From positions 13,360 through 77,359 of the forward strand of contig DBRB01000003.1 in the NCBI GenBank assembly GCA_002305475.1: DNA of 64,000 nucleotides, written 5' to 3'. A program made the position numbers and the translations under genes. This document shows, piece by piece, positions 11,499 through 46,719 of the stretch (the first letter of the stretch is position 1; every line of letters starts with the position of its first letter). The notes below the pieces were generated by a model, which was not told where the DNA came from, did no database searches, and saw nothing but the letters and a program-made list of their open reading frames with translations. Source of the DNA: a candidate division WWE3 bacterium UBA1379. Lineage in GTDB: Bacteria > Patescibacteriota > WWE3 > UBA101185 > UBA10185.

Positions 11499-11518
11499 TG
11501 ATTCTGCAATAGATTATT

Positions 11519-24086: not shown

Positions 24087-24152
24087 AGGCGCATAATATT
24101 ACAATAAATAGTTAATTTCAATTTTATACAGACTTTAATCTTTCAATATATT

Positions 24153-27716: not shown

Positions 27717-29777
<2,061 letters not shown>

Positions 29778-29804
29778 TTATATTATTGTCTAACATTTTA
29801 GTAT

Positions 29805-30476
29805 ATGAATAAAGTACGCCCTGTCCTATTTTTTGTAATTATTCTTGGTTTAATCTCAATATTAGGTATCCTATATATAGTATATTTCAGAGTGGCAGAA
29901 ATTGATCCTAATGCTGCAAATCCATTTGCACAAAAGGTAGACTATGAGAAAATCTTTAAGGATATAAAAGATGAAGATATGATAATAACCTATGTGACTC
30001 CATCTCTCTATCGTGCAGATTCTATTGAGACTAAAGGGATAGTGGTAATTACTACCGGTGAGTTATATGATCTTGATATTCAGGAAGCAAGCAGTGGTAC
30101 AACAATTGCTAAGGCACGGGTGGCGAAAACCGTCACCAAAGATCCGTCAGGAAATATAATTCCGATCGAATGGATCGTTTCATTATATCCAATTGATAAT
30201 AATACAGAAAATTACCTGGACGGAGTATTGAGCAGTTTTCTTACGATAAATAAAAAATCTTCATTGGAAGAGAATTTTATCAATGGAAACTTATGGATAT
30301 TTAGGCCCTACATTCCTTTTGAGAATCTTGAAGTTGATGAAAGACTAAAGAATCTAGCCGTTGCATATTATGGTGATGAGACATTTCTCAGGGATATTTT
30401 TTATGATAAATATTTAAAAGAAATTAAAAAACCGATTATTTTGTCAGGTGTTGATCAATTTCAATCTTATGAATAG
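29805..30476 (+). CDS. Membrane-anchored hypothetical protein.
   Basis: An N-terminal signal-anchor (VLFFVIILGLISILGILYIVYF). The rest has no recognisable motif. Confidence 0.45.
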   Translation: MNKVRPVLFFVIILGLISILGILYIVYFRVAEIDPNAANPFAQKVDYEKIFKDIKDEDMIITYVTPSLYRADSIETKGIVVITTGELYDLDIQEASSGTTIAKARVAKTVTKDPSGNIIPIEWIVSLYPIDNNTENYLDGVLSSFLTINKKSSLEENFINGNLWIFRPYIPFENLEVDERLKNLAVAYYGDETFLRDIFYDKYLKEIKKPIILSGVDQFQSYE

Positions 30477-33111
30477 ATTAAACAATACAAATAAAATATT
30501 CTTCTTTTTTATTATTCTTGTATTTACATTTTTGCTCCAAAACGCCACAAAACAGTTTTATGCTGTTTCTTATGAACTATGTAGACCTGACTGGGAAGAA
30601 TGCAGATGCTGTACTACCGGAGATATTGATGATTTCTTGTGTAGAAATGTTAATTGCTGTGAAGCTTACGATGGAACACCCTGTGATTGTTCCAGGCAAG
30701 TCAGTATACCTGATGGTTGTACAACCTGGGGTACTTCAGCACCAGGATGGACTATACCCACACAAAGATTTCGAACGGAATATATTACTTGTAGGAATGA
30801 TAACGATAGAATGTGTAGAGATAATAATTCGCGAACAGCACGTTATTGTAACATCAACGGGAATGTCATTACTGCTACTGCCAACTATAATTGTACGTTA
30901 AATCCTCATTTAGAAGAACTCAATAGAACAGACGGATATAGAAATATGGACGAAAGACTTTATGAGCCGGATGATACAAGAACTTTTTCCTGTCCAGCAA
31001 ATATAAACGGTTATCTTAAAGTCAGAAGATGGTGGAATAATGCTTCTGCTCCCGCAGGTATGTATGATGCCCAGTATTATACGCCAGCACCTTTTGATAG
31101 ACCTGAGCATATTGCAACAGATCAATGGTGGACAGCACATTATTCAGGATATATTTATATTCCAGCCGGCTGGCGAAGAATACAAGCATGGGGTGCTGAA
31201 GATTGGATTGCAGAATGCCGCCAATTCTGTCAGGGACGCCCTTTTGTAAATTGTGGAACTAATTATAGTGCGTGTGGCTTACCAACTGAAAGATTTACGA
31301 TATATTTGGGTTATAGTAATGTGGATTCGAATACCATAGCCCCATCCGGCCAGATCCTTCCTAACGGAAATATGAGTGGTATGACAAGTATCGAGGTAAC
31401 CGGGGGAAGGAATTATTTTCAGAAATACTTTCAGGAAGGCTGGTATCCTTTACTTATTGATTATCGTCATACTGGTACATATACAAATAGTATTCAGGAA
31501 GTTGATGATGAATCCAGAATGCGAACCAGCACGTCATCTGATGGAAGTACATGGTCTGGATGGGGAGATTTTTCGGCATATCAGTTTAATTCCTGCCAGC
31601 CCGGACCTACCCTGGGACCTGTATGCACAGGTATTACCGGTCCGGCGTCCGTAAACAGAAGCACACCAGCAACATTTACAGCGAATGCCACAGATAGTGA
31701 TACTCCTGCGACTAATCTCCGATACACTTGGTCTGCTACCTGCGGTACAATTACATCTGCAAATCCGCGAACTGGCAATGCAACAATGTCTTGGGGATCA
31801 TCAACCACACCAGGTACCTGTACTATAGGTGCAACCGTCAGCGATGGCACACGCACTGGAGTCTGTCCTTCATTAAATGTGTCGGTTGGAAACAGACCGC
31901 CTGCCACCTGTAATATTTCTGATACTTTTACAGAAATTTATGTGGGTTCATCACGTACTCTGACTATAAATGGTACCGATCCGGATGCTGATCAATTATC
32001 TTATGTCACTTCATTTAATGTTTCACCTCAATGTGGAACTTTAGCTCCGGTTTCTTATTCAACGGTTCCGTCAGGTGCAAATAGGACATTTACGTATACT
32101 GCACCTAATACCAGCAGAAACGGTTGTACTTTGACTGCAACTATTCGTGATCCTTATAACGCTACAAGGACATGTTCATTCAATTTTGATGTGAAAAACA
32201 GAGAGTTTAACTGGTTCATCGGTGTAGACGGTGATATCTTTTCTGGAGATCGTACGGATATGCGTATCGGATTAACTAGCTCAGATAGTTTTTCTACTTC
32301 GTCACGATTTATCGGAAGGGATTATGCCAGTGTCTTTGGGAGGGGTGCATTTGATGTTGTTCGATATCTTTCTAACAATGCTACTCAGAATGCGGAAGTT
32401 GATACGAACAAATCAAATTTTATTGTCAGATATTCGACTGACAATTCCAATAATTATTGGAAAGATTTTCCGGATACGTTTACAGATTCTTCAAGTATTC
32501 CATCATGTAGTGTAAGCGGAGGTATATATATACTTGATGCTGGAGCTGTTTGTAAAATTGGTGTTGGCAATAATGGTTTAGCAGCAAATGTATATCGGGT
32601 TACCGTTCCTGGGTCTGATACTACTGCAAGCAATGATGTTGCATATATTATTGACGTGGGAACATCGGGGGATCTTGTTTTTTCAACCGACTTCAAACCT
32701 GCCGGAAATGGTTATGGACGCGCGGTATTGATTACACAAAGGAATGTGATAATTAGAAAGGATGTAGGTTATGCCAATTGGAATGCGCTGGACTTTAGGT
32801 TTAATATTCCTACCCTTGCACCAGATCTGAATAAGGATATGAAACCTAATATTGCCGCATCGATAATTACTACCGGTAATATTGTAGTTGAATCATCCGG
32901 AGATCCTTCAACAGAAAAGGTATTGTATGTTGATGGGCCATTGGTTGCAAAAGGTAGAATTCAAATGAATCGTTTCCCATACAACAATGCACCGGGTATG
33001 ATTGTCCGTTATCTGCCATGGTACTTAACCAGGATGGCCAATCAGGGCAGTAGTATTATGCTGGATTATGGAATATTAGATTCGGAAATTAAATGGGTTG
33101 GAGAAAATTAA
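30469..33111 (+). CDS. Large secreted Cys-rich protein with a PA14-like region and tandem Ig/PKD-like repeats. It is a candidate adhesin, possibly pilus-associated.
   Basis: A signal peptide (MNRLNNTNKIFFFFIILVFTFLLQNA) and an N-terminal Cys-dense module (CRPDWEECRCCTTGD...CRNVNCCEAYDGTPCDC). A PA14-like stretch is GWYPLLIDYRHTG. Two ~95-aa repeats (...TFTANATDSD... / ...TLTINGTDPDADQ...) are each rich in Thr/Ser/Cys. The track ORF starts at 30448. Confidence 0.55.
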   Translation: MNRLNNTNKIFFFFIILVFTFLLQNATKQFYAVSYELCRPDWEECRCCTTGDIDDFLCRNVNCCEAYDGTPCDCSRQVSIPDGCTTWGTSAPGWTIPTQRFRTEYITCRNDNDRMCRDNNSRTARYCNINGNVITATANYNCTLNPHLEELNRTDGYRNMDERLYEPDDTRTFSCPANINGYLKVRRWWNNASAPAGMYDAQYYTPAPFDRPEHIATDQWWTAHYSGYIYIPAGWRRIQAWGAEDWIAECRQFCQGRPFVNCGTNYSACGLPTERFTIYLGYSNVDSNTIAPSGQILPNGNMSGMTSIEVTGGRNYFQKYFQEGWYPLLIDYRHTGTYTNSIQEVDDESRMRTSTSSDGSTWSGWGDFSAYQFNSCQPGPTLGPVCTGITGPASVNRSTPATFTANATDSDTPATNLRYTWSATCGTITSANPRTGNATMSWGSSTTPGTCTIGATVSDGTRTGVCPSLNVSVGNRPPATCNISDTFTEIYVGSSRTLTINGTDPDADQLSYVTSFNVSPQCGTLAPVSYSTVPSGANRTFTYTAPNTSRNGCTLTATIRDPYNATRTCSFNFDVKNREFNWFIGVDGDIFSGDRTDMRIGLTSSDSFSTSSRFIGRDYASVFGRGAFDVVRYLSNNATQNAEVDTNKSNFIVRYSTDNSNNYWKDFPDTFTDSSSIPSCSVSGGIYILDAGAVCKIGVGNNGLAANVYRVTVPGSDTTASNDVAYIIDVGTSGDLVFSTDFKPAGNGYGRAVLITQRNVIIRKDVGYANWNALDFRFNIPTLAPDLNKDMKPNIAASIITTGNIVVESSGDPSTEKVLYVDGPLVAKGRIQMNRFPYNNAPGMIVRYLPWYLTRMANQGSSIMLDYGILDSEIKWVGEN

Positions 33112-34166
33112 CTAATATGAGTAAATATATTTATAAAAATGATAATAGATTTAAGAAGGGTCAGGCTCTTTTATTGGTGGTAGTAGCCATGACTGTAGCT
33201 TTAGCATTAGGCGTAAACGTATCCGTCAGAACTATATCCAACCTGTCACGTACAACAAGAAGCGATACCGCTTCAAGAGTTCTATCTGCTGCGGAAGCAG
33301 GCGCTGAGCGTTTTCTTTCTCTTGCAGCAGCAGATTTAGAAACTGCCGCCGGCGGAGATATCACATCAGCTTGTAATAAAGTCAATGGGACATCGTCACC
33401 AGACAAAAGTAAATGTACACTTCAGTTCGTAGGTGCAGATGATGTCAATGTAGTTGTAGATGTAAGTGTAGGTAGAGGAGGGCAGGATGAATATACATTT
33501 ATTCTTGAACAGGATACCACCACGGAGGTTCGTGTTAATCAGAACCCAGGTGATGGCGGATACAGATTTGCGAAAGTGTGCTGGAAAAGTATTAACCCTT
33601 CTTATAGAACAGATTTGTACTTAGTAACTTTGGGTACTACTAATACTGATGGAACTCATAGGGTATTAGGTAAACGCGTGCTAAGGCAATCATCAACTAA
33701 TCCATACAAGCCAGGAATGAGTAGTTATTCCTTAGTATCATCTGGGGGTACCGGTCAAATAATTAGTGCAGATTACTCGTCTTCTGATAGTGCTTACTGT
33801 AAAACTTTAGTTACACTTAAAGATGTTGCTGCAGATACAATACGAGCAGTGCGGTTTAGGGCTATTGGAGGAGATGCGGAAGTAACAATAACGGATGTCG
33901 GACGTTTGCCTGCTCAGGGATATACAATTACCGCATTAGGAACTTTATCTCAACCAGGCGGTAATATCATCAGAGAAGTTGAAGTATTCAAATCATATCC
34001 ATATCCCTCAGGTATCTTTGATTTTTCGATATTTTCGGGATCTGGTGGTTGGATAAATCACACCGGACAAACTCCCCCTCCTCCGGTTACACCATTTCCT
34101 ACACCTAGAAATGCCATTCCATTACCGTCGGTACCAACAGTCACTCCTACCCATTCAACTAGTTAA
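33093..34166 (+). CDS. PilX-N/GspK-like pilus-associated protein (paralog 1).
   Basis: The N-terminus KKGQALLLVVVAMTVALALGVNVSVRTISNL...AEAGAERFLSL matches the PilX_N pattern. It is paralogous to 44291..45094, which carries AEAGAERLLIR. Confidence 0.55.
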   Translation: MGWRKLTNMSKYIYKNDNRFKKGQALLLVVVAMTVALALGVNVSVRTISNLSRTTRSDTASRVLSAAEAGAERFLSLAAADLETAAGGDITSACNKVNGTSSPDKSKCTLQFVGADDVNVVVDVSVGRGGQDEYTFILEQDTTTEVRVNQNPGDGGYRFAKVCWKSINPSYRTDLYLVTLGTTNTDGTHRVLGKRVLRQSSTNPYKPGMSSYSLVSSGGTGQIISADYSSSDSAYCKTLVTLKDVAADTIRAVRFRAIGGDAEVTITDVGRLPAQGYTITALGTLSQPGGNIIREVEVFKSYPYPSGIFDFSIFSGSGGWINHTGQTPPPPVTPFPTPRNAIPLPSVPTVTPTHSTS

Positions 34167-34200
34167 AGTAAAATAAATGGAAATATAAATATTACTTTAG

Positions 34201-34845: not shown

Positions 34846-34934
34846 AATCTAGAAACTATCTTCAACCATGTTTCTTGTCAATACTTTGTATGATATTATT
34901 TTCATAGCATGTGAAGTAAAAACATGCTGATGAT

Positions 34935-34950
34935 TCTCACAATTGTGAGA
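34935..34950. promoter_or_regulatory. Perfect 16-bp palindrome TCTCACAATTGTGAGA, 8 bp upstream of the pilB start codon. It is a candidate operator.
   Basis: Perfect dyad symmetry. The half-site AATTGTGAG resembles the lac-type operator half-site AATTGTGAGC. It overlaps the RBS region of the first pilus gene. Confidence 0.5.
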
Positions 34951-34957
34951 CCTGCCT

Positions 34958-36721
34958 ATGTTTAAAGTAGATACAAATACAAGAGGAATTGAAGAGGTAC
35001 TTTATGATAAGAAACTTATTACCTCCGATCAGTTATCCGCAATAAAATTTGAGCATGTAAATACCGGAAAAAGCATTGAATCTATTATTAAAGAGAGGGC
35101 TTATGTCAGTAATGATGATTTTGTAAAAGCATTGGGAGAGGCTTATGGTTTTGATTATGCTCCCCTTTCAGAAGAACAGGTCGATTCGAATCTTTTGGAC
35201 CTCATTCCATTAAGCTCAGCTAAAAAATACAATGTAGTGCCATTTAATTTAAATGGTAATAATCTGGCTGTGGCGATGGTTGATCCGCTTGATTTGCAGA
35301 CCATTGAATTTATTGAAAGAAAAACCGGGTATAAAGTAGTCCCCTTTATTACTACAGAAAAAAATATCGAACGAATTCTTGAAGAGCAGAAAGGTAAAGC
35401 AATCGGCGAAGAAATCAGTGCTGCAATGGAAGAAATCAGTCAGACCACTTTAAAACTTGATGAAACCTCAGGTGAACTTACTGATGCCACTATCCGTGAT
35501 GCTCCTATTGCCAGAATTGTGGGAATGATTCTGGAGACAGCGGTAAAAACTGGAGCATCTGATGTGCATTTGGAGCCGGGTGAAGATGTATCCAGACTCA
35601 GATATAGAGTAGACGGTATTCTGGAAGAAAAAAGAAAACTTCCTAAGGAGATGCATGATTCCATAGTTGCCCGTATTAAAATTCTGGGTAAGATGAAGAT
35701 TGATGAAAAGCGTTTACCTTTGGACGGTCGATTTAAAGTACAGGTTGGAAATACTTCAACCGATCTTAGAATTTCAACTCTTCCTACCATATATGGGGAA
35801 AAAGTTGTGATCAGATTATTAAAAGAAGAAGGAGCGGCCTTCTCATTTAAAGATCTAGGATTAAGGGGTCTATCTTTAAAACGTCTGGAGGAAGCAATTC
35901 TAAAACCAAACGGTATGGTGCTGGTAACCGGACCTACCGGATCTGGTAAGACTGTTACACTGGCTTCCGCATTAAGTAAATTAAATACCATCAGAGTGAA
36001 TATTGTTACTCTTGAAGATCCGGTGGAAATTCGTGTTCCGGGTGTAAATCAGGTGCAAATCAATCCTCAGGCAGGTTTAACATTTGCCACAGGGCTTAGA
36101 GCTTTTCTTAGACAAGATCCTAACATCATCATGGTTGGTGAGGTCAGAGACGGTGAAACTGCTGAGCTGGCTATTCATGCGGCTTTAACAGGTCACCTGG
36201 TTTTGTCCACTTTGCATACCAACTCTGCATCAGGTGCTTTACCTCGACTTTTAGATATGGGTGCGGAAAACTTTTTGCTGGCTTCCACGGTTAATGTGGT
36301 GGTTGCCCAAAGACTTGTGCGTAAAGTATGCAGCAACTGTGCTGAAGAATACGATCCTCCGGAGGAAGTTGTACAGGATATCAAAAGAGTGGTATCAGGT
36401 ATATCCAATGCCATGCTGGCACAGAATAAAGATCCGGATATTATGAAAGCCGTGAAGAAATCCCAGGAAAACAAAATCACTTTGAAAAAAGGCACGGGTT
36501 GTGACAAGTGTGCCAATACCGGATACAAAGGACGACTTGGAATATTTGAAGTATTAAATATATCCAATGAGATTTCACATATGACGCTAGAAAATGCACC
36601 CGCAGCAAAAATAGAAGCTATTGCTGTTGAGCAGGGCATGATAACATTAATGCAGGATGGTTATCTGAGAGTGTTGGAAGGCGCAACAACACTTGAAGAA
36701 GTACTTAGAGTCGCCAAATAA
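34958..36721 (+). CDS. pilB: Type IV pilus assembly ATPase PilB (GspE family).
   Basis: An N-terminal T2SSE_N domain, Walker A VTGPTGSGKTVT, Asp/His boxes, Walker B IIMVGEVRD, and the tetracysteine motif CSNCAEEY...CDKCANTGYKGR. Confidence 0.9.
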   Translation: MFKVDTNTRGIEEVLYDKKLITSDQLSAIKFEHVNTGKSIESIIKERAYVSNDDFVKALGEAYGFDYAPLSEEQVDSNLLDLIPLSSAKKYNVVPFNLNGNNLAVAMVDPLDLQTIEFIERKTGYKVVPFITTEKNIERILEEQKGKAIGEEISAAMEEISQTTLKLDETSGELTDATIRDAPIARIVGMILETAVKTGASDVHLEPGEDVSRLRYRVDGILEEKRKLPKEMHDSIVARIKILGKMKIDEKRLPLDGRFKVQVGNTSTDLRISTLPTIYGEKVVIRLLKEEGAAFSFKDLGLRGLSLKRLEEAILKPNGMVLVTGPTGSGKTVTLASALSKLNTIRVNIVTLEDPVEIRVPGVNQVQINPQAGLTFATGLRAFLRQDPNIIMVGEVRDGETAELAIHAALTGHLVLSTLHTNSASGALPRLLDMGAENFLLASTVNVVVAQRLVRKVCSNCAEEYDPPEEVVQDIKRVVSGISNAMLAQNKDPDIMKAVKKSQENKITLKKGTGCDKCANTGYKGRLGIFEVLNISNEISHMTLENAPAAKIEAIAVEQGMITLMQDGYLRVLEGATTLEEVLRVAK

Positions 36722-36732
36722 TTACTGCCTAT

Positions 36733-37821
36733 ATGAGATTAGATGCAACACAAATATTGGAGCAAGTTGTAAGTAATAATGCATCAGATTTGCATTTATG
36801 CGTTGGAGTTTCTCCGCATATCAGGGTGAATACAGTACTCAGCCCTCTTGCTGATTATCCCCCATCGACAACGGAAGATATTGAATATTTCCTCAGTCAG
36901 GTTCTTGATGAAGATCAAAAATCCTTGTATGAAATTAATCGTGAGTTGGATTTTTCCATTGCCTTAGGTAATAAAGCACGTTTCAGAGTAAATGCCTTTT
37001 ATCAAAGAGGATACCCCTCGGTTGCCCTGCGTTCCATTCCCATGACAATACCTACTTTGGAGGACCTTAATTTACCGGAGATACTCGGAAAACTTTGTGA
37101 TCTTAAGCAGGGGTTGATATTGGTTGTCGGACCTACCGGGCATGGTAAATCCACAACCATTGCATCTATGATAGATAAAATCAACAACAGCAGGGCGGAA
37201 CATATCATAACAGTGGAAGATCCTATAGAATATGTGTATACAAATAAATCATCATTTATTGAACAAAGAGAAATGTATATTGATACTCATGATTGGGATA
37301 TTGCATTAAAATCAGTTCTTAGACAGGATCCTAACATCGTGATGATCGGAGAAATGCGGGATATTGAAACAATGACAGCCGCACTTCAGGTTTCTGAAAC
37401 CGGTCACCTGGTTTTTGCAACACTTCATACAAACTCAGCTGCCCAAACCGTAGAAAGAATTATTAACTCATTTCCGGAAGGATCAAAAGCCCAGGTACGA
37501 CTTCAGCTTGCCCAGGTATTAGAAGTGATCATTTCACAAAGACTACTCCCCTCCTCTACCAAAGGTATGGTTCCTGCGGTAGAAATAATGCTGGCAACCG
37601 ATGCAATCCGTAATCTGATTCGGGAAAACAAGACGCACATGATTGATAATACAATCCGAACCAGCATGTCGGTGGGTATGCAGCCGATTGAACGAGGTCT
37701 GGCACTTCTGGTGGAAAAAGGCTGGGTGGATGTATCTGATGCAATGAAATATGCCATTCTTCCGGATGAATTGGCAAGACTTTTAAAAAATTCAAAGTAT
37801 GTGAAACCTGAAAAACGCTAA
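36733..37821 (+). CDS. pilT: Type IV pilus retraction ATPase PilT.
   Basis: Walker A VVGPTGHGKSTT and the block IVMIGEMRDIETMTAALQVSETGHLVFATLHTNSAAQTVERII; a 362-aa protein typical of PilT. Confidence 0.9.
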   Translation: MRLDATQILEQVVSNNASDLHLCVGVSPHIRVNTVLSPLADYPPSTTEDIEYFLSQVLDEDQKSLYEINRELDFSIALGNKARFRVNAFYQRGYPSVALRSIPMTIPTLEDLNLPEILGKLCDLKQGLILVVGPTGHGKSTTIASMIDKINNSRAEHIITVEDPIEYVYTNKSSFIEQREMYIDTHDWDIALKSVLRQDPNIVMIGEMRDIETMTAALQVSETGHLVFATLHTNSAAQTVERIINSFPEGSKAQVRLQLAQVLEVIISQRLLPSSTKGMVPAVEIMLATDAIRNLIRENKTHMIDNTIRTSMSVGMQPIERGLALLVEKGWVDVSDAMKYAILPDELARLLKNSKYVKPEKR

Positions 37822-37825
37822 GCCT

Positions 37826-39028
37826 ATGCCTTTGTTTAAGTATACAGCAACAGATACCAACGGGAATAGAAAAGAAGGAACCGTAGACGCGCGTTCTGAA
37901 GAACTAGCTGTATCTCTTCTAAAATCTCAGGGCTTTTTTGTCATAAATGTAGCAGAACAGAAAAGCGGTATTTTAGGATCAATTTCGGCAGTCAGAGGAA
38001 TTTCCGAAAGTGAAATAGTGGCTTTTACCAGACAGTTTTCCACCATGATTTCAGCTGGTCTTCCGATATCAAGAGCATTAGATGTTTTGGCGGAACAGTC
38101 TCCAAATAAAAATTTCAGGATTATGATGGGAAGTATATTGCGAGATGTTGAGGGTGGTTCTCCTTTATCCGCATCAATGGGACGTTATCCTAAGTATTTC
38201 AACCCTACCTACCAGGCATTAGTCAGAGCCGGAGAATCCTCAGGTAAACTTGATGAAATTCTTAAACGATTAGCTGCTACTATGGAAGCAAATCGGGAGC
38301 TTAAAGCTAAGTTCAAAACCGCCATGATCTATCCCACTATCGTCATGATTGCGATGGTAGGTGTGTTTTTCCTTTTGATGTTTACCGTTGTTCCAAAGTT
38401 GGCGGAAATGTATGAAAGCTTAAACATTGATCTTCCTCTGCCTACAAAAATAATGATCGCAATTTCCGATTTCATGGTTCACCGTTTTTATATTATGGCT
38501 TTGGTAATTGCAGGAGTAGTGTATTTAGTCAAAAGTTTTTTGAAGACGGAAACTGGCCGTGGATATATATCACGTTTAATGTTTTCCCTACCGGTTTTCG
38601 GACGTTTAAACAGATTAAGAGATATCACTCAGTTTTCCAGAACCTTAGGTCTTTTAATAGGTTCTGCGATTCCTATAGTTGAAGCATTAAAGATTGTATC
38701 TAATGTGGTAGCCAATGATTATTACAAAGATGCTGCTTTGTCCGCAGCAACAGTTGTGGAAAAAGGAGGAGCTTTATCCGAATATTTTAAACGTAATAAA
38801 GAATTCCCTCCTCTTCTGGGACAGATGGTAGGTGTGGGAGAAGAAACCGGTCAGCTGGATGAAGTATTGGAAAAAGTTGCAAATTATTTCAACAGTGAAG
38901 TAGACCATGCAATTGAAGGTTTATCAGCTTCACTTGAACCATTTATCCTTATCTTTTTGGGGAGTATGGTAGGTCTTCTTATTGTTTCGATTATTACGCC
39001 TATTTATAAGATTACAACATCTATTTGA
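37826..39028 (+). CDS. pilC: Type IV pilus inner-membrane platform protein PilC (GspF family).
   Basis: Two GspF repeats (FTRQFSTMISAGLPISRALDVL... and FSRTLGLLIGSAIPIVEALKIV...) and three TM segments. Confidence 0.9.
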   Translation: MPLFKYTATDTNGNRKEGTVDARSEELAVSLLKSQGFFVINVAEQKSGILGSISAVRGISESEIVAFTRQFSTMISAGLPISRALDVLAEQSPNKNFRIMMGSILRDVEGGSPLSASMGRYPKYFNPTYQALVRAGESSGKLDEILKRLAATMEANRELKAKFKTAMIYPTIVMIAMVGVFFLLMFTVVPKLAEMYESLNIDLPLPTKIMIAISDFMVHRFYIMALVIAGVVYLVKSFLKTETGRGYISRLMFSLPVFGRLNRLRDITQFSRTLGLLIGSAIPIVEALKIVSNVVANDYYKDAALSAATVVEKGGALSEYFKRNKEFPPLLGQMVGVGEETGQLDEVLEKVANYFNSEVDHAIEGLSASLEPFILIFLGSMVGLLIVSIITPIYKITTSI

Positions 39029-39074
39029 TGTCATCGGTGTGCAAAAGTATATTAAAGCACCTATAATATTTAAT

Positions 39075-39599
39075 ATGAACTCGAAAAACTTCCTCAGAAG
39101 AAGAAATAAATATACAGTCGGATTCACACTTCTTGAATTAATATTAGTTATGGCAGTTATTTCTATATTATCCGGATTGTTGATTGCGGTTATCAATCCC
39201 AGGGAAATAATGGCGAAAGGCCGTGACGCTCGCAGAATGACCAATTTGGATGTTATTCATAAAGCAATATCACTGGGACTTACGGAAGAAGAAATCAATT
39301 TGGTGGCAACCGGATCGTGCTCAGACTGTTCAAGTGCTACAGGTTCTCAGGCAGTGGACGGTACAGGATGGGTAAAATTTACTATCCCGACAGGTAAAAC
39401 AGGACTATCAAGATACATTCCGGCACTACCTCTTGATCCCAAAAACTCGGAGGGTAATATTTATACCTTTGGTTCTACTGCAACATCTTATGAGTTGAAT
39501 GCCATTCTGGAGGCAGAGGATAATGCAAGTATTATGAGTACGGACGGCGGAGATGATGTAAATGTGTACGAGGTAGGCACTTCTTTGAGTATCTTATGA
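39075..39599 (+). CDS. Type IV pilin/prepilin with a class III signal. The start is refined to MNSKNF; the track ORF begins at 38982.
   Basis: MNSKNFLRRRNKYTVG|FTLLELILVMAVISILSGLLIAVI has Gly at -1, Phe at +1 and Glu at +5. There is a C-terminal Cys pair (CSDCSSA). Confidence 0.8.
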   Translation: MNSKNFLRRRNKYTVGFTLLELILVMAVISILSGLLIAVINPREIMAKGRDARRMTNLDVIHKAISLGLTEEEINLVATGSCSDCSSATGSQAVDGTGWVKFTIPTGKTGLSRYIPALPLDPKNSEGNIYTFGSTATSYELNAILEAEDNASIMSTDGGDDVNVYEVGTSLSIL

Positions 39600-40477
39600 T
39601 CTTCATTTTTTACTATATTCTTTTGTTTATTCTGGGGTTATTTGTCGGATCTTTTTTAAATGTTATAGCAGACCGTTCCATCGTTGATGAAACTTTTATT
39701 AAAGGACGTTCCAGATGCGATAACTGTAAAAAAACATTATCGGCAAAGGATCTTATCCCGGTATTCTCATATCTGTTTTTGCAAGGAAAGTGCAGATATT
39801 GCAAGATAAAGTTATCAATCTGGTATCCGCTGGCGGAAATAATGACAGGAATTTTATTTACAGGATCGGCTTATATTTCACAGGTATTTACGGATTTTTC
39901 AATTCATTCTCTTTTTCTGTTCATATTTCTGATTACGGTATCAAGTTTTTATATGATACTGTTTCTCAGTGATGCCAAATACAAACTGATTCCTTCCAAT
40001 GTAATATATACATCAATCATTGCGGTATTTATATTTTTAATAATCATCCAGGGGTATACCCTATTTTCCACATACAGAAGTTTGAAAATTGATGAGTTTG
40101 GACAATACTTAATAAAAGCAGGGTATTTTAATGCTCAACTGATTGAAAGTGCAAAGTATTTTGGAATATTGCTGGCTAGTTCTTTAGGCTTGGGTGCTTT
40201 TTTTTGGTTTCTGGTATGGATAACCAGAGGAAAAGGTATGGGAGATGGAGATATAACACTTGCTGTACTTATCGGGCTTGTGAATGGTTTTCCTAATAAT
40301 ATTTTGGCAATATTTTTAGGATTTTTATTCGGAGCAGTGTTTTCCCTTCCCCTGGTTTTATTTAAAACAAAAGGTTTAAAAGATACCATTGCATTCGGCC
40401 CGTTTTTGTTAATCGGCAGTGCTGTAGCGTTTATCTGGGGATCGAGAATTCTTGATTGGTATCTACAGTATCTTTAG
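39596..40477 (+). CDS. pilD: Prepilin peptidase / N-methyltransferase PilD (A24 family).
   Basis: An N-terminal Zn-binding motif CDNCKKTL...CRYCKIK, catalytic Asp motifs including GMGDGDITL, and multiple TM helices. Confidence 0.9.
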   Translation: MIFIFYYILLFILGLFVGSFLNVIADRSIVDETFIKGRSRCDNCKKTLSAKDLIPVFSYLFLQGKCRYCKIKLSIWYPLAEIMTGILFTGSAYISQVFTDFSIHSLFLFIFLITVSSFYMILFLSDAKYKLIPSNVIYTSIIAVFIFLIIIQGYTLFSTYRSLKIDEFGQYLIKAGYFNAQLIESAKYFGILLASSLGLGAFFWFLVWITRGKGMGDGDITLAVLIGLVNGFPNNILAIFLGFLFGAVFSLPLVLFKTKGLKDTIAFGPFLLIGSAVAFIWGSRILDWYLQYL

Positions 40478-40600
40478 TAACGTCCTTGACAGTGTATCTG
40501 AACTGAATCATACTTAATGTATAAAAGTTATTACCTGCCCATGGAAAATATAAATCAAATAGGAAAATTGAATATAAAGAAGAAAGGGGGTGTAGAGAAT

Positions 40601-41047
40601 ATGAGAAATCGAAAAGGTTTTACACTTATTGAACTTTTAATCGTTATCGTTATTATCGGTATCTTAGCAGGAGTAGTACTTGCGGTTATGAACCCTGCTG
40701 AGCAAAGAAGAAAAGCAGCAGTTAGCGTTATGCGAGCAAATTTAGACAAGATGTGTTTAGCGATGAGCGCATGTGCATCAACTGTTACTAGTGCAGCAAG
40801 TTGTGATACAGCAGCTGAAATTGGTATCACTGTTGATGGTTCAGGTAATCCTACTATGAATGGTGTCCCTGTAGGGGCAGCTTACACAATAGGCGCAAGC
40901 GGTCAGGAGCTTACTGCAACAGCAACAGGAACGAATTTGGGAACAGGAGGTACGGTTGATTGTATATATACATGTACACACGACGTTGATACTGGTGAAT
41001 CCACACCTATTACGGCAGACAATCCCGCAAACTGCTTTAACCTTTAA
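40601..41047 (+). CDS. Type IV pilin, a candidate major pilin. The start is refined to MRNRKG.
   Basis: MRNRKG|[20 protein letters not shown] with a GGG-rich RBS upstream. The C-terminus is Cys-containing ([13 protein letters not shown]...CFNL). Confidence 0.75.
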
Positions 41048-41150
41048 TCATTGGCTTGATAATACTAAAGTATCCCCGGTTAACCGGGGATATTTTCTTT
41101 TCTTGACAAATCACCTACTTAGTCTTCATACTATTCATAACATACTGTCC

Positions 41151-41813
41151 ATGAAAAATACTTATAAATCTATTTTTAAAACACATCAACAATCCGCGGT
41201 CACATTAGTTGAATTATTAATTGTTATTACTATTTTGGGGATTTTGGGGAGTGTTATAGTGGCTATTATAAACCCCAGAATTCATAAAGATAAGGTAAGT
41301 GAAGCCGTAAGACTTTCCAATATGAGAAGAGTAATTGAAGTAATTGAGACGGTCAGGACTATAGAAGGTGTGTATCCTGATGATATCGATGATATTCAGA
41401 GCTATATACAGGGAGATGTACTGGAGTCTATAGGTGATTTCACTTATAATTCAACCGGCGGTTCTGATTTTTGTTTATATAGTAATGATCAAGCTGCAAT
41501 TTTGGATGGGTATATGGCATATTCTACTCAATGGACAGATACTGAGATTATGACTTGTAGGAATAAGAGTTCTTTATGTAATAGTATTACTGAGTGCTCG
41601 CCGGTCACTATTCCTTCAGCTTCACCGACTCCTTCTCCAACTCCGTCGATAACTCCCACACCAACTCCAAGACCGAGTACAACACCAACACCAGTACCTA
41701 CACCAACGCCGGTTCCTACACCAACTCCTACACCAACACCAGTACCTACGCCAAGACCAAGTCAGACACCGATACCTATACCGACGGTTACACCTACCAG
41801 CTCAAAAAGTTAA
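41151..41813 (+). CDS. Pilin-like protein with a C-terminal Pro/Thr-rich low-complexity tail.
   Basis: The prepilin-like N-terminus [25 protein letters not shown] has Glu at +5. The last ~63 aa are a (PTP/TPTP) repeat [41 protein letters not shown]. Confidence 0.65.
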
Positions 41814-41866
41814 GTATAGGTGAATTTTGTAACGAATTACTTAATTGAAAATTTGGTTGATAAATT

Positions 41867-42397
41867 ATGTTAAAAAAACGATATCAGACAAGCAATATAA
41901 AATCATTTACTTTAATAGAATTAATGATAGTTGTTGTAATTCTTTCTATCTTAAGTGGTGCCACTATTGCTGTAATTAACAGCGCCGGATTTCAGGGAAG
42001 AGCTAGAGACTCACAACGTGCCGCAGATATAAAAAAGATACAAACCGCTTTAGAACTTTATTTTGCAGACAATCGAAAATATCCACCAAATACTAGTTTT
42101 CAACGAGTTACAGCTACTGCATTAACTAATACATTGGTAAATGGTGGCTATATTAGTTCTATACCTCAGGATCCAAAATTTCCTAACACTGGTGCTACAA
42201 ATACTGCATGTTCGAATGACCGCGATTACCTATACAGAAGTGATAGTAATGGAAGTATTTATGTATTATCAGCTAGTATGGAGTTAGAAGCTTCTGCTGC
42301 CAGCAGCAGGTGTCTTACAACTGTTGTACCAAACTGCAGCACTTTTTCATGTAACTGTACTGGATATACCAGAGCGTATTGTGTTCAAAACCCCTAA
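41867..42397 (+). CDS. Pilin/pseudopilin (GspG/PilE-like).
   Basis: KSFTLIELMIVVVILSILSGATIAVI then RAADIKKIQTALELYFADNRKYP, the classic pseudopilin helix. Confidence 0.8.
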   Translation: MLKKRYQTSNIKSFTLIELMIVVVILSILSGATIAVINSAGFQGRARDSQRAADIKKIQTALELYFADNRKYPPNTSFQRVTATALTNTLVNGGYISSIPQDPKFPNTGATNTACSNDRDYLYRSDSNGSIYVLSASMELEASAASSRCLTTVVPNCSTFSCNCTGYTRAYCVQNP

Positions 42398-42409
42398 GGA
42401 TTATTACAG

Positions 42410-42757
42410 ATGAAACATAAGTCTTTTACTCTCATCGAACTCATGATATGTGTAGGTATCATCACACTATTGCTCGGTGTGGTAATGGTATTAATTAATC
42501 CCAGAGAACTATTAGCCAAAGCACGTGATGAAAAACTTCTGTCTAAAGTAACGGAATTTGATGCTTACATACTTGAGCACAAAATAGATAATGGTGTGTA
42601 TCCCGATCTTACTCCTCCACCCGGAATAATTTATATGCATACCCCTTCTTCCTATGAAATAAATGTGGTATTGGAATTTCTTGTTGAACAGGCACAGAAT
42701 GACGGCGGAAATGATCCCGGAGTGTACGAAACAGGTAATGATTTAACCCTTATTTAA
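42410..42757 (+). CDS. Minor pilin/pseudopilin.
   Basis: MKHKSFTLIELMICVGIITLLLGVVMVLINP with an AAGGA RBS upstream. Confidence 0.75.
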   Translation: MKHKSFTLIELMICVGIITLLLGVVMVLINPRELLAKARDEKLLSKVTEFDAYILEHKIDNGVYPDLTPPPGIIYMHTPSSYEINVVLEFLVEQAQNDGGNDPGVYETGNDLTLI

Positions 42758-42772
42758 TGATATTATTTATAT

Positions 42773-43270
42773 ATGAACTTATCTGTCCAAAGTTCAAAAG
42801 CATTTACACTCATTGAACTTCTTGTTGTCGTCTCATTAATTCTTATTTTAACTGCTGCAACGATTCCTAACTACAATAATTACTTAGATAATCAGATGTT
42901 AAAACAGGCACAGGAAGCAGTGAAGAATGATCTCAGATCTGTACAAAACCGGGCATTAACCGGTACTAATGCGGACACTGTAGATTATTGGGGTATAAAA
43001 TTTTTTAGTAATACAAACACTTATCGAATTATTAGTGGTTCAGGTAATCCAAACTGTTCGACCTTTACCAATACCAGTGGTGCTCCCAGTCAGAGATTGC
43101 CGGCGAATACAACTATTGGAACAAACGGTTGCGTTTTCTTTAGTACTAATAATGGAGATCGTATAGCTGGTGTTGACAATATTAGTGTTGTTTCAGATGC
43201 CGGATCCAAAGTGGTATGTATAAACCCTGCTGGACTGATTTACTCCAGGGATTCTTCAGGTGGTTGTTAA
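42773..43270 (+). CDS. Minor pilin/pseudopilin (GspH/FimT-like).
   Basis: KAFTLIELLVVVSLILILTAATIPNYNNYLDNQMLKQAQEAVKNDL. Confidence 0.75.
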   Translation: MNLSVQSSKAFTLIELLVVVSLILILTAATIPNYNNYLDNQMLKQAQEAVKNDLRSVQNRALTGTNADTVDYWGIKFFSNTNTYRIISGSGNPNCSTFTNTSGAPSQRLPANTTIGTNGCVFFSTNNGDRIAGVDNISVVSDAGSKVVCINPAGLIYSRDSSGGC

Positions 43271-43760
43271 TATTACTGGCATGATAATAAAATCTTTTAA
43301 AAACAAAAGAATTAAACATAAAAATGGCTTTGGACTGATTGAAACTGTGGCAGCATTAGGTGTGACTATGATAGTTGTAACCTCAATGGTGTCCATGTCT
43401 TTGTATGCTCTTAGATCTACGCAACAGAGTCAGCTGATGCTTGCAGCTACTAAACTGGCTAATGAAGAGCTAGAACGTGTTAGAGCAAAGAGAGATACAA
43501 CTACCTGGTCCGCTTTTCTTACTGCAGTAAACGGCTGCACACAATTATCACCATGTTCAATGAATGAATTAAATGTTGTTGGTTCTCAAAATACTTTTAC
43601 ATATAACAATGTAGATTTTAGAAGAAGTTTTGTAGCGTCTTATCCGATTCCTAGTGATACGAATGTAGTGAGAATCGGAGTAACTGTGTCATGGAAGTTC
43701 GGGTCTTCTACTTATAACAAGTCCGTATACAATTATACAGATTTGTCTAATTGGAGATAA
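43260..43760 (+). CDS. Minor pilin (PilV/GspI-like).
   Basis: KNGFGLIETVAALGVTMIVVTSMVSM has Gly-Phe at the cleavage site and Glu at +5. Confidence 0.65.
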   Translation: MVVNITGMIIKSFKNKRIKHKNGFGLIETVAALGVTMIVVTSMVSMSLYALRSTQQSQLMLAATKLANEELERVRAKRDTTTWSAFLTAVNGCTQLSPCSMNELNVVGSQNTFTYNNVDFRRSFVASYPIPSDTNVVRIGVTVSWKFGSSTYNKSVYNYTDLSNWR

Positions 43761-43764
43761 TATT

Positions 43765-44304
43765 ATGGTAACTAACCTGATAAAGGTAAAAGGATACAAT
43801 CAGAAATATCTGAAAAAAAGTTTTACCTTGATTGAACTTATGGTTGTGATTGCAATATTAACAATCACCGCTGGGTTAACTACCAGTGTTATCGTATCCA
43901 TTACCAGAAGCTATAGTAAAACTCAGATTACAAATGAATTAGAGCAAGCTGCAGGTTTTGCATCACAGAAACTCACTAAAGAATTACGAAATGCTGTTGC
44001 TATTACCAATATTTCTTCAACTAGTATCTCTTTTAGTGATCATACAAATGATGTGATCACATATAGAGTAAATGCAAATCAATTGCAGAGGAGATCACAA
44101 TTAGCAGGTACAGCTTTTCGTGCTTTAACCGACACAAATACAACTAGTGTTTCTTGTCCTTCCGGTTGTTTTAGTGAACTAAATAGTAATCCTAAGGTTA
44201 TAAGTATTAAAATGAAGTTCACCTCTGCAGGAACTGAGGGTGGAACTGCGTTCACTGGTAGCGTAGATATTAATGATACTGTCGTAGTGCGTGGCACCTA
44301 TTAA
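43765..44304 (+). CDS. Minor pilin (PilW/GspJ-like).
   Basis: KKSFTLIELMVVIAILTITAGLTTSVIVSI then ELEQAAGFASQKLTKELRNA. Confidence 0.7.
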   Translation: MVTNLIKVKGYNQKYLKKSFTLIELMVVIAILTITAGLTTSVIVSITRSYSKTQITNELEQAAGFASQKLTKELRNAVAITNISSTSISFSDHTNDVITYRVNANQLQRRSQLAGTAFRALTDTNTTSVSCPSGCFSELNSNPKVISIKMKFTSAGTEGGTAFTGSVDINDTVVVRGTY

Positions 44305-45094
44305 TATGTTTCTCGACCCTGTAACAAAAAAACAATATAGAAGTGATCAAACTAAAAAGGCACAGACTTTAATAATAATTATTGCCGTGATGGTTATAGC
44401 CATGTCTGTTGGGGCTGCCTTATCTACCCGGTTTATTAAAACTCTGAAGGATACAGCTTATATTGATATGTCTAGCAGAGCCTTAGCTGTGGCAGAAGCA
44501 GGAGCGGAAAGACTTTTGATACGTCCTTTATCCGAACTTGAACAGTTTATCGCAAATGATAGTTGTGGTTCAAATTGTCTGATAGAAATAATCGGAACGG
44601 ATGGAGTTACAGCTACAGCTTCAGTAGTTTTAAGTTATGATGGTAATACATCGGGTCCCTACCCCCTATCTCTGGAAACTAATAAAACCAAGGAAGTGTA
44701 TATGAATTCATACCCCTCGAATACTTCATTCAATATCTGTATCGACAGTAAATCGGTGTCAAACCCGATTGCCGTATCTGTTTTGTTTGCTTATGGCAGC
44801 ACCGGTAATTATCAAATTGAAAACTATCTATTGGAGAGTTTCGGATGTCATACCATACCCGGTAAATCAAATCCTGCTTTGCTCCGGATTACCTCTATTT
44901 ATGATGATTTTACAGGTCAGTTAGTTCCGGTGGTGGGAGCCTCTATTCCATCACAGGGAGTATTAATTGAGTCAACAGGTAGACTTAACGATGTTGTAAA
45001 GATAGTCAGAGTTTTAAAAACATATTCATATGTACCAAGTGATTTTGATTATATTTTGTATTCAAAATCCGAAGATGAACCATTGTCCAACTAG
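44291..45094 (+). CDS. PilX-N/GspK-like pilus-associated protein (paralog 2).
   Basis: KAQTLIIIIAVMVIAMSVGAALSTRFIKTL...ALAVAEAGAERLLIR. It shares the AEAGAER motif and overall architecture with 33093..34166. Confidence 0.55.
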   Translation: MAPINMFLDPVTKKQYRSDQTKKAQTLIIIIAVMVIAMSVGAALSTRFIKTLKDTAYIDMSSRALAVAEAGAERLLIRPLSELEQFIANDSCGSNCLIEIIGTDGVTATASVVLSYDGNTSGPYPLSLETNKTKEVYMNSYPSNTSFNICIDSKSVSNPIAVSVLFAYGSTGNYQIENYLLESFGCHTIPGKSNPALLRITSIYDDFTGQLVPVVGASIPSQGVLIESTGRLNDVVKIVRVLKTYSYVPSDFDYILYSKSEDEPLSN

Positions 45095-45117
45095 CAAACT
45101 TCTTGTAAAATTTAAAC

Positions 45118-46149: not shown

Positions 46150-46160
46150 AGGAGGATTAT

Positions 46161-46715: not shown

Positions 46716-46719
46716 TACT

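What the first reader, a model, noticed from the sequence alone, without database searches (positions are those of the whole stretch)
30469..34166. A large Cys-rich PA14/Ig-repeat protein plus a PilX-like gene directly upstream of the pilus operon: a candidate tip adhesin
An ~880-aa secreted protein has an unusually Cys-dense N-terminal module, a PA14-like segment (GWYPLLIDYRHTG) and two internal ~95-aa Thr/Ser/Cys-rich repeats. A protein with a PilX-N-like N-terminus immediately follows it. A second PilX-like paralog (44291..45094) sits inside the pilin block. This arrangement resembles PilY1/PilC-type tip adhesins, which are delivered by minor pilins. The protein itself has no obvious characterised homolog by eye.
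Basis: partly seen in the sequence, partly recalled or inferred. Interest (0 to 1): 0.7.

Follow-up and report, generated by a model that had tools for sequence, protein, structure and literature searches.

The report
Candidate pilus-tip adhesin gene pair
A large, cysteine-rich secreted protein and a small pilin-like protein encoded right after it form a gene pair that recurs beside type IV pilus genes in ultra-small (CPR) bacteria; it is most likely a swappable sticky tip for the pilus, though the proposed PA14 domain was not found and tip location is not shown.

Summary
The genes are real: an 880-aa signal-peptide protein ("BIG", 30469-33111) and a 357-aa PilX-like protein (33093/33117-34166). 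Confirmed: the Cys-dense N-terminus (14 Cys in aa 38-142; 30 in all), two Ig-like repeats (Pfam Big_9 above threshold) and a PilX-like paralog at 44291-45094. Not confirmed: PA14 gave no Pfam hit even at E<=10. "Directly upstream" is loose, because holB on the opposite strand separates the pair from pilB.

In 9 related CPR loci (Saccharibacteria, WWE3, other Patescibacteria) a 750-1270-aa signal-peptide protein sits immediately upstream of a PilX-like gene (11 pairs), usually inside or beside a pilin/pilMNO block. These large proteins share only a ~300-aa C-terminal domain with no significant Pfam, NCBIfam or PDB match, ending in a conserved strand-like tail. Their N-terminal parts are mutually unalignable, Cys-rich (always an even count) and carry different Ig-type domains. 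Residues 35-370 of the window protein match nothing among 1.84 billion representatives.

Best reading (confidence 0.55): a non-homologous functional analogue of PilY1/PilC. A hypervariable adhesin is docked by its conserved C-terminal domain to a dedicated PilX/PilK-type minor pilin. Linkage is shown; tip location, docking and binding are inferred.

The parts
29805..30476 (+). A 223-aa protein with a single N-terminal TM helix. Its stop overlaps the BIG start by 8 nt. It may be an accessory gene of the cassette.
   Evidence: The ORF is listed, and it has no Pfam or NCBIfam family. Small N-terminal-TM proteins also precede BIG genes in L006, L007 (twice), L009 and L014, but they share no detectable sequence homology.
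30469..33111 (+). BIG, an 880-aa secreted modular protein and the candidate pilus-associated adhesin.
30469..30570 (+). Sec-type signal peptide (aa 1-34). The inferred cleavage site is AVS|YE.
   Evidence: Read directly from the sequence. There is no G-F-T-L-x-E prepilin motif and no signal-peptide predictor was available.
30571..30903 (+). Cys-dense module (aa 35-145) with 14 Cys.
   Evidence: Cys counts are. The region has no Pfam hit at E<=10 and no homolog in the representative library.
30904..31593 (+). Orphan Trp/Tyr-rich region (aa 146-375).
   Evidence: No Pfam family matches at E<=10 and no PDB chain matches at E<=10. In the representative library only a few marginal alignments extend back to aa 324-357.
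31594..32202 (+). Two Ig-like (Big_9/PKD-like) repeats, aa 376-478 and 479-578.
   Evidence: Big_9 scores 27.8 bits against a cut-off of 23.6. The repeats are 33% identical to each other, E 1e-4. Hits in the representative library concentrate here.
32203..33108 (+). Conserved C-terminal domain (aa 579-880), which defines the family. Motifs are W-F-x3-DGD-I-F-S, GRxxLI..NVxI, I.A.II..G.I..ES, V.GPLVAKG.I...R and P...V.Y.P.YLT. It is the proposed dock for the PilX-like partner.
   Evidence: The 12-sequence alignment is A4. P0059 matches aa 552-857 at E 7.5e-8. BLASTP gives E<1e-3 for 48 of 66 C-region pairs. There is no significant PDB, Pfam or NCBIfam match, apart from sub-threshold DUF7305 hits.
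33073..33108 (+). Extreme C-terminal tail ILDSEIKWVGEN. It has a conserved alternating-hydrophobic, strand-like pattern (family consensus GLSxxDVxWExxx) and is the candidate donor beta-strand.
   Evidence: The tails of all 12 family members are listed. The beta-strand-addition mechanism is documented for PilC/PilY1 in PMC13533445. Its application here is inference.
33093..34166 (+). PilX-like1, a PilX/PilK-type minor-pilin-like protein. It is 357 aa from ATG 33093 or 349 aa from ATG 33117, which lies 5 nt after the BIG stop and follows a GGAG. It has a conserved G|Q site, no Glu5, a long N-terminal helix, a beta-sandwich head and the conserved YPYxxGxFDFxIFS motif.
34958..47523 (+). T4P operon: pilB, pilT, pilC, a prepilin, pilD, 7 prepilins, PilX-like2, pilM, pilN, pilO. 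This is the machine the pair is proposed to serve.
   Evidence: Pfam hits and NCBIfam prepilin hits for 38982-39599
44291..45094 (+). PilX-like2, a paralog 28% identical to PilX-like1. It is the last gene of the minor-pilin block, just before pilM (the 'K position'). It has orthologs in L006, L007 and L012 at 39-42% identity.

Best explanation
BIG and PilX-like1 form a two-gene, probably translationally coupled, module of the type IV pilus (T4P) of a CPR/Patescibacteria bacterium. The closest relative found is a WWE3 genome. BIG is exported by Sec and folds as a disulfide-rich extracellular protein. Its variable N-terminal two-thirds comprise a Cys-knot-like module, an orphan region and two Ig-like spacers, and form the binding 'head'. 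Its conserved ~300-aa C-terminal domain, probably including the conserved strand-like last ~12 residues, attaches it to PilX-like1. PilX-like1 is a Glu5-less PilX/PilK/GspK-type minor pilin that sits at the apex of the priming complex. BIG would therefore be carried out on the pilus tip as the filament polymerises. The module would work like PilY1-PilX, PilC-PilK or MshQ-MshP, but BIG is not homologous to them. PilX-like2 in the pilin block would provide the default tip without BIG. SHOWN: the gene structure, the domain layout, the family and its conserved C-terminal domain, and the conserved adjacency to PilX-like genes and pilus genes. INFERRED: export, disulfides, physical docking, tip location, the adhesin role and beta-strand donation.
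For: (1) Conserved pairing. In L001 (twice), L004, L005, L006, L007, L008, L009, L010 and L014 a 750-1270-aa ORF ends within -29 to +19 nt of the start of a PilX-like gene. Every PilX-like1-type gene whose upstream DNA is available has such a neighbour.
(2) Pilus context. The pair lies between pilD and the pilin block (L001, L007). Elsewhere it lies directly before 5-7 prepilin genes and, where the contig extends that far, pilMNO (L004, L005, L006, L008, L014).
(3) An independent route gives the same picture. P0059 is the only protein among 1.84 billion representatives that matches the BIG C-terminal region (E 7.5e-8). It was found by sequence alone. It also sits immediately upstream of a PilX-like gene (33% identical to the window's, E 3e-37) and five or more pilins.
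(4) Conserved dock and variable head. BLASTP gives E<1e-3 for 48 of 66 C-region pairs. Only 6 N-region pairs match, and none involves the window protein. The middle domains differ between members: Big_9, DUF11, GBS_Bsp-like or FN3-like. This is the PilY1/PilC pattern.
(5) Extracellular hallmarks. All members have signal-peptide-like N-termini. All 11 full-length members have an even Cys count of 10-46.
(6) The partner is pilin-like. It has a conserved G|Q site before a hydrophobic helix and no Glu5. The AF2 model gives a helix at aa 17-75 and a beta head with core pLDDT 75-92. Relatives hit PilX_N. Its paralog occupies the K position after a weakly ComGF-like pilin.
(7) There is a mechanistic precedent. 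The last ~10-12 residues of PilC/PilY1 complete the PilK beta-sheet in trans, and MshQ is predicted to do likewise (PMC13533445). The BIG family has a conserved strand-like tail.
(8) In TM7x, a Saccharibacterium, a non-canonical 'PilX2' minor pilin carrying a bulky domain mediates host binding (PMC11623550).
Confidence: 0.55

Rival explanations
1. BIG is a cell-envelope-anchored or freely secreted surface protein, such as an adhesin or S-layer-associated protein. It is merely co-regulated with pili. Its conserved C-terminal domain would be a cell-wall or membrane anchoring module, not a pilus dock.
For: BIG has a Sec-type signal rather than a prepilin signal. The C-domain has no known pilus-related homolog. 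In the window and in L009 the pair lies outside the pilus operon.
Against: This reading does not explain why the immediately following, start/stop-coupled gene is a PilX-like minor pilin in 11 of 12 cases across divergent lineages. It also does not explain why the pair is embedded between pilD and the pilins in L001 and L007. No known anchoring motif (LPXTG, SLH, LysM or a C-terminal TM segment) was detected.
Confidence: 0.17
2. The T4P-like machine acts as a type II-secretion-like piston. BIG would be its cargo, loaded on a PilX-like/GspK-like pseudopilus tip and released, rather than a retained tip adhesin.
For: The partner is a GspK/PilX-type protein without Glu5. T2SS substrates dock on the GspK-containing tip without strand addition (PMC13533445 discussion). 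CPR bacteria lack an outer-membrane secretin, so released cargo is conceivable.
Against: The operon has a PilT retraction ATPase and a full pilM/N/O set with many pilins, as expected for a true T4aP. Cargo proteins are not normally encoded as a fixed pair with their own dedicated K-type pilin. The conserved strand-like C-terminal tail argues for stable retention.
Confidence: 0.1
3. BIG is primarily a pilus-assembly or priming factor, for example a plug, a cell-wall channel or a licensing factor. Its conserved C-domain would be the functional part and the variable N-terminus would be incidental or immune-evasive decoration.
For: Only the C-domain is conserved. In L005, L008 and L011 the PilX-like1-type gene is the only K-type pilin in the locus, so the pair may be needed to start assembly. 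PilC/PilY1 are also assembly-licensing factors.
Against: This does not exclude the adhesin role, since PilY1 does both. The window genome also has PilX-like2 in the canonical position, so pili could be primed without BIG. The very large, modular, Ig-containing heads and the multiple copies per locus (L001, L007) look like binding-specificity cassettes.
Confidence: 0.12

Closest known systems
PilY1 (Pseudomonas, Myxococcus) and PilC1/2 (Neisseria): non-pilin T4aP tip adhesins that dock on PilX/PilK
   Same: Both are large proteins with a Sec signal rather than a prepilin signal. Both have a variable N-terminal part and a conserved C-terminal part. Both are encoded next to the PilX/PilK-type minor pilin gene, and several copies can occur per genome. 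Both have a conserved extreme C-terminal peptide. The proposed mechanism (a C-terminal beta-strand donated to PilK; PMC13533445) fits the conserved strand-like tail.
   Different: There is no sequence homology, and no Neisseria_PilC beta-propeller or vWA domain was detected. The C-domain is ~300 aa rather than ~500 aa. The gene order is BIG then PilX-like, the reverse of pilX then pilY1. The host is a CPR bacterium without a pilQ secretin in the locus. BIG has a very high, always even, Cys content.
MshQ of the Vibrio cholerae MSHA pilus
   Same: MshQ is a ~1200-aa protein without PilY1 homology. It is encoded adjacent to the PilK homolog (MshP) and is predicted to donate its C-terminal strand to it (PMC13533445). 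It is therefore a precedent for non-homologous PilY1 analogues recognised by synteny.
   Different: No similarity to MshQ was tested or seen, and the lineage and gene order differ.
PilX1 and PilX2 of Nanosynbacter lyticus TM7x (Saccharibacteria)
   Same: These are CPR T4P minor pilins without a predicted PilD signal. They have a 'lollipop' architecture plus a beta-jelly-roll-like (PilX1) or beta-propeller (PilX2) head. PilX2 is needed for efficient host binding (PMC11623550). The window's PilX-like1 model is likewise a helix plus a jelly-roll-like head.
   Different: In TM7x the bulky binding domain is fused to the pilin itself. Here the bulky protein is a separate Sec-secreted gene product with its own conserved C-domain. 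That paper describes no BIG-type partner. Direct sequence comparison with the TM7x proteins was not possible.
Modular pilins of Streptococcus sanguinis (PilB, PilC) and CpaL/TadG of Tad pili
   Same: In these systems binding modules are displayed on T4P through a minor-pilin(-like) carrier at the tip (search results; PMC13533445).
   Different: Those proteins carry the pilin or pilin-like module in the same polypeptide. BIG has no class III signal peptide or pilin module.

Membership tests
PilY1/PilC tip adhesins (Pfam PF05567 Neisseria_PilC) | Conserved C-terminal beta-propeller domain detectable by the Neisseria_PilC HMM | tested here: not met
   No Pfam hit for aa 568-880, even at E<=10. 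None of the 12 family C-domains hits it. The A4 profile finds nothing relevant in the PDB.
PilY1/PilC tip adhesins (Pfam PF05567 Neisseria_PilC) | Non-pilin protein with a Sec signal, encoded adjacent to the PilX/PilK-type minor pilin in a T4P locus | tested here: met
   The signal-like N-terminus lacks a prepilin motif. Adjacency is seen in 11 of 12 BIG genes, usually in pilus loci.
PilY1/PilC tip adhesins (Pfam PF05567 Neisseria_PilC) | The last ~10-12 residues form a beta-strand that completes the PilK/PilX sheet (PMC13533445) | not testable with these tools
   A conserved alternating tail is seen.
PA14 domain (PF07691) | Match to the PA14 HMM | tested here: not met
   Sub-sequences covering aa 35-174, 158-374 and 178-384 gave zero Pfam families at E<=10, and the PDB search gave none.
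PA14 domain (PF07691) | PA14 beta-barrel fold | tested here: inconclusive
   The single-sequence AF2 model has mean pLDDT 32.6. No homologs exist to build an alignment.
Bacterial Ig-like repeats (Big_9 / PKD-like) | HMM match above the curated cut-off, in tandem copies | tested here: met
   Big_9 scores 27.8 bits against 23.6, in two stretches, with weaker Cadherin_4 and K319L-like_PKD hits. The repeats are 33% identical to each other.
PilX/PilK/GspK-type minor pilins (Pfam PF14341 PilX_N), for the 357-aa protein | Match to the PilX_N HMM | tested here: inconclusive
   The window protein and its paralog give no hit, even at E<=10 on the N-terminal 92-100 aa. Two of 8 family members hit, the best being P0009 at 25.2 bits against a cut-off of 25.5.
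PilX/PilK/GspK-type minor pilins (Pfam PF14341 PilX_N), for the 357-aa protein | Gly/Ala at -1 before a hydrophobic N-terminal helix, absence of Glu5, and a pilin 'lollipop' architecture | tested here: met
   G23 and Q24 are conserved (Ala replaces Gly in the paralog) and +5 is Leu. AF2 gives a helix at aa 17-75 followed by a beta domain.
PilX/PilK/GspK-type minor pilins (Pfam PF14341 PilX_N), for the 357-aa protein | Globular domain structurally similar to GspK or PilX | tested here: not met
PilX/PilK/GspK-type minor pilins (Pfam PF14341 PilX_N), for the 357-aa protein | Last gene of the syntenic minor-pilin block (K position) | tested here: met
   This holds for paralog 2 (44291-45094) and its orthologs in L006, L007 and L012, which lie after pilin7 and before pilM. 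Paralog 1 is instead paired with BIG.
Modular (bulky-domain) type IV pilins (S. sanguinis PilB/PilC; TM7x PilX1/PilX2), considered for BIG | Class III signal peptide and pilin module in the same polypeptide as the bulky domain | tested here: not met
   BIG has no N_methyl/prepilin motif and no pilin module.
DUF7305 (PF23981) | HMM match above the cut-off (27 bits) | tested here: not met
   Three of 12 C-domains give 14-16 bits (E 0.011-0.048) in the same register, and the window protein gives none. This is a lead only.

The most novel reading that the evidence does not exclude
BIG-type proteins are a previously undescribed, CPR-wide family of type IV pilus tip proteins. They are defined by a new ~300-aa docking domain, possibly a beta-solenoid with a donor C-terminal strand, that pairs with a dedicated PilX-like minor pilin. 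Their hypervariable, disulfide-rich heads are the host- or prey-recognition determinants of these episymbiotic bacteria. The head of the window protein (aa 35-375) has no homolog among 1.84 billion representative proteins. Swapping such cassettes would set host range.
Probability: 0.35. Interest if true: 0.75.

Novelty: new variant of a known kind. Interest (0 to 1): 0.55.

Why it matters
All cultivated CPR/Patescibacteria live attached to other microbes. Their type IV pili are implicated in host binding, but the molecules that recognise the host are largely unknown. This work points to a conserved two-gene cassette: a variable, Cys-rich head with a conserved dock, plus its own PilX-type adaptor. 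Such a cassette would give a concrete, genome-searchable candidate for host-specificity determinants across Saccharibacteria, WWE3 and other lineages. It would also extend the 'large adhesin docks on PilK' principle (PilY1/PilC, MshQ) to a deep-branching lineage whose locus encodes no secretin, using a non-homologous docking domain. That bears on when tip adhesins arose in type IV filament evolution.

Tried and rejected
(1) PA14. I scanned sub-sequences against Pfam at E<=10 and searched the PDB by sequence, and found nothing, so the assignment is rejected as unsupported.
(2) Single-sequence AF2 of the full BIG protein gave mean pLDDT 32.6, which is unusable. I therefore ran no fold search on it.
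(4) The word-indexed homolog search with BIG found only itself and one weak Ig hit. The same search with the C-domain alignment A2 found nothing.
(5) The first genome scan, with alignment A1, failed because the alignment was too divergent. I redid it with A3.
(6) One metagenome scan with A4 failed because no stretch was conserved enough. Two further scans with C-domain patterns (A7, A9) ran and found no relatives.
(7) Profile searches of the PilX-like family (A1) and the C-domain (A4) against PDB sequences found nothing meaningful.
(8) NCBIfam gave no family for BIG, for either PilX-like protein, or for the upstream TM protein.
(9) I tested for homology among the small TM proteins that precede BIG genes and found none.
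(10) The promoter and terminator scan of 29600-35100 was not above the shuffled expectation and is uninformative.
(11) I looked for a mobile-element explanation for the cassette. There is no GC anomaly (0.398-0.399) and no mobility genes are adjacent.
(12) The afdb50 fold library was unavailable.
(13) Literature searches for DUF7305 and PF23981 returned no papers.

Full report
WHAT IS THERE. The window is chromosomal DNA (GC about 0.38) carrying housekeeping genes: dnaB, gyrA, gyrB, an H+-pyrophosphatase, holB, trmD, recG, a class A PBP and pheT. Three overlapping or abutting plus-strand genes lie between gyrB (minus strand, 27717-29717) and holB (minus strand, 34201-34845). The first encodes a 223-aa protein with one N-terminal TM helix (29805-30476). 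The second is the 880-aa protein I call BIG (30469-33111). The third is a 357-aa protein, PilX-like1 (33093-34166). The likelier start of PilX-like1 is ATG 33117, which lies 5 nt after the BIG stop and is preceded by GGAG inside the end of BIG. After holB comes a complete type IV pilus (T4P) operon: pilB, pilT, pilC, a prepilin, pilD, seven prepilins, a 267-aa protein (PilX-like2, 44291-45094), pilM, pilN and pilO. The pair is therefore about 0.8 kb from pilB but separated from it by an oppositely oriented housekeeping gene.

CHECK OF THE OBSERVATION. BIG begins with a Sec-type signal-like segment and has no prepilin motif. Fourteen of its 30 Cys lie in aa 38-142. Residues 376-478 and 479-578 are tandem repeats, 33% identical with E 1e-4. 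They match Pfam Big_9 above its cut-off when scanned alone (27.8 against 23.6 bits), with weaker PKD and cadherin-like hits. The proposed PA14 segment is present as a string (aa 324-336). However, nothing in Pfam matches aa 35-384 even at E<=10. PDB sequence searches of the full-length protein and of aa 158-374 found nothing significant. A single-sequence AlphaFold2 (AF2) model was unusable, with pLDDT 32.6. An exhaustive phmmer search of 1.84 billion representative proteins gave 144 hits. All but one had their best stretch within or extending from the Ig repeat region, and none had a best stretch starting before residue 324. Only P0059 matched the C-terminal third (aa 552-857, E 7.5e-8). The N-terminal 340 mature residues are therefore an orphan.

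RELATED LOCI. A scan of one genome per species with the PilX-like alignment returned ten loci, all from CPR bacteria: Saccharibacteria/Saccharimonadales, WWE3 and other Patescibacteria. Look-ups of homologs gave two further informative loci, L001 and L014. The closest relative is a WWE3 genome (L007), with PilB 76%, PilT 67% and PilM 67% identical. Wherever upstream DNA is available, a PilX-like1-type gene is immediately preceded by a 750-1270-aa ORF. This holds in L001 (two pairs), L004, L005, L006, L007, L008, L009, L010 and L014. In L001 and L007 the pair lies between pilD and the pilin block. In L004, L005, L006, L008 and L014 it directly precedes 5-7 prepilin genes and, where the contig continues, pilMNO. 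In L009, as in the window, it stands apart. In L007 the holB(-)/pilB junction is conserved, so the cassette has changed place relative to a conserved operon core. L014 is an independent test. Its large protein is P0059, found through BIG's own sequence. It is followed by a gene 33% identical to PilX-like1 (E 3e-37) and then by pilins.

THE FAMILY-DEFINING DOMAIN. The twelve large proteins align over their last ~300 residues (alignment A4). Mean pairwise identity is 26%, and BLASTP gives E<1e-3 for 48 of 66 pairs. The shared motifs are W-[FI]-x3-[DG]-GD-[IV]-[YF], GRLLIV..GNVxI, IxAGxIxxGxIxFES, VxGPLIxKGxIxFxR and YPxxxVxYxPxYxYxLT. The extreme C-terminus is strand-like, with consensus GLSxxDVxWExxx and the window sequence ILDSEIKWVGEN. 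The three G-containing motifs look like successive rungs of a beta-solenoid, but that is my inference only. This domain has no significant match in Pfam, NCBIfam or PDB sequences. Three members give sub-threshold DUF7305 hits in the same register. In contrast, the regions upstream of the domain match in only six closely related pairs and never match the window protein. These regions carry different Ig-type domains: Big_9, DUF11, GBS_Bsp-like or FN3-like. Most begin with a Cys-dense stretch right after the signal peptide. All eleven full-length proteins have an even number of Cys, from 10 to 46. That is expected if every Cys is disulfide-bonded outside the cell. Under random parity the chance of eleven even counts would be about 1 in 2000.

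HOW IT MOST LIKELY WORKS. The anatomy is a conserved C-terminal module, a hypervariable modular head, Sec export and a fixed, start/stop-coupled partnership with a PilX/PilK-type minor pilin in pilus loci. Several copies occur in some loci. This is the anatomy of PilY1/PilC-type tip adhesins. In those proteins the last ~10-12 residues insert as a beta-strand into PilK/PilX. The complex then primes the filament and stays at its tip. MshQ is a non-homologous protein predicted to do the same (PMC13533445). I therefore propose that BIG is carried at the pilus tip by PilX-like1, docked through its C-terminal domain and possibly its terminal strand. I also propose that its head binds a surface ligand, plausibly on the host cell given the episymbiotic lifestyle of cultivated CPR bacteria (PMC11623550). 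PilX-like2 would give a BIG-less tip. The linkage and the domain logic are shown. Export, disulfides, docking, tip location and binding are inferred. My confidence in the overall model is 0.55, and in strand donation specifically about 0.3.

RIVALS. There are three. First, BIG could be an envelope-anchored or free surface protein that is only co-regulated with pili (0.17). This does not explain the obligatory PilX-like neighbour. Second, BIG could be cargo of a secretion-type piston (0.10). The presence of PilT, the many pilins and a dedicated K-type pilin argue against this. Third, BIG could be mainly an assembly or licensing factor (0.12). This is compatible with the model and is partly true of PilY1 as well.

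COMPARISON AND NOVELTY. BIG works like PilY1/PilC or MshQ but is not a member of those families. The defining beta-propeller HMM is not met. It is not a modular pilin, because it has no prepilin module. The PA14 claim fails. The literature searches I ran returned no description of this C-terminal domain or of the BIG/PilX-like cassette. The TM7x study describes bulky domains fused to PilX-type pilins, not separate partners. I rate it a new variant of a known kind: a new, non-homologous family of pilus-associated large proteins in CPR bacteria. Interest is moderate (0.55). The concept is familiar to pilus specialists. The family would nonetheless give a searchable candidate for host-specificity determinants in a large, poorly understood part of bacterial diversity, and it extends the adhesin-on-PilK design to a lineage whose locus encodes no secretin.

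Noticed in passing
BIG-family proteins: window 30469-33111; L001, L004-L010, L014 (P0059): All 11 full-length family members have an even number of cysteines (10, 22, 26, 30 in four members, 32 in two, 36, 46). This suggests fully disulfide-bonded extracellular proteins.
   Followed up: partly
window 29805-30476; L006:1323-1889; L007:7181-7684 and 10970-11737; L009:61-768; L014:2748-3560: A small (167-270 aa) protein usually precedes the BIG gene. Most carry one N-terminal hydrophobic (TM- or signal-like) segment. These proteins show no detectable sequence similarity to each other, and their role is unknown.
   Followed up: partly
window 34060-34166 (aa 323-357 of PilX-like1): PilX-like1 ends in a Pro/Thr-rich tail (TPPPPVTPFPTPRNAIPLPSVPTVTPTHSTS) that is absent from all homologs. 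The family-wide YPYxxGxFDFxIYS motif just before it is unstructured in the AF2 monomer model.
   Followed up: no
L007:11751-14111: A second BIG-family gene (786 aa, 37.5% identical in its N-region to the first) is followed directly by pilins, with no PilX-like gene of its own. It may share the partner of the first copy.
   Followed up: no
L008:9953-11146 and L009:3450-4610: The PilX-like genes here are longer (397 and 386 aa) and Cys-rich (18 and 14 Cys), so the adaptor itself can carry insertions.
   Followed up: no
L005:16437-17465: A 342-aa protein with a prepilin motif and 32 Cys lies just after pilO. It may be a modular, bulky-domain pilin.
   Followed up: no
window 38982-39599 and 40956-41813: An extra prepilin gene lies between pilC and pilD, with its prepilin motif at aa 47-67, so the true start is probably later. 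It is conserved in L007 at 54% identity. The 285-aa ORF at 40956 has its prepilin motif at aa 78-101, so its true start is also probably downstream.
   Followed up: partly
window 6400-9060, 14063-15109, 12001-14000, 1440-1527: A VirD4/TrwB-like coupling ATPase (886 aa) sits alone among housekeeping genes. A tyrosine integrase lies about 5 kb further on, next to the lowest-GC stretch of the window (0.328). A tRNA-Leu gene is at 1440-1527. No clear mobile element could be delimited.
   Followed up: partly
C-terminal domains of L001:6129-7088, L009:2516-3475, L010:2174-3133: Pfam DUF7305 (PF23981) gives sub-threshold hits of 14-16 bits in the same register (domain aa ~132-221 against profile positions 26-112). 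What DUF7305 proteins are could not be looked up.
   Followed up: partly
window 23418-26087 (minus strand): An OmpR-type response regulator and a GAF-PAS histidine kinase lie about 4 kb upstream of the cassette. No link to the pilus genes was examined.
   Followed up: no
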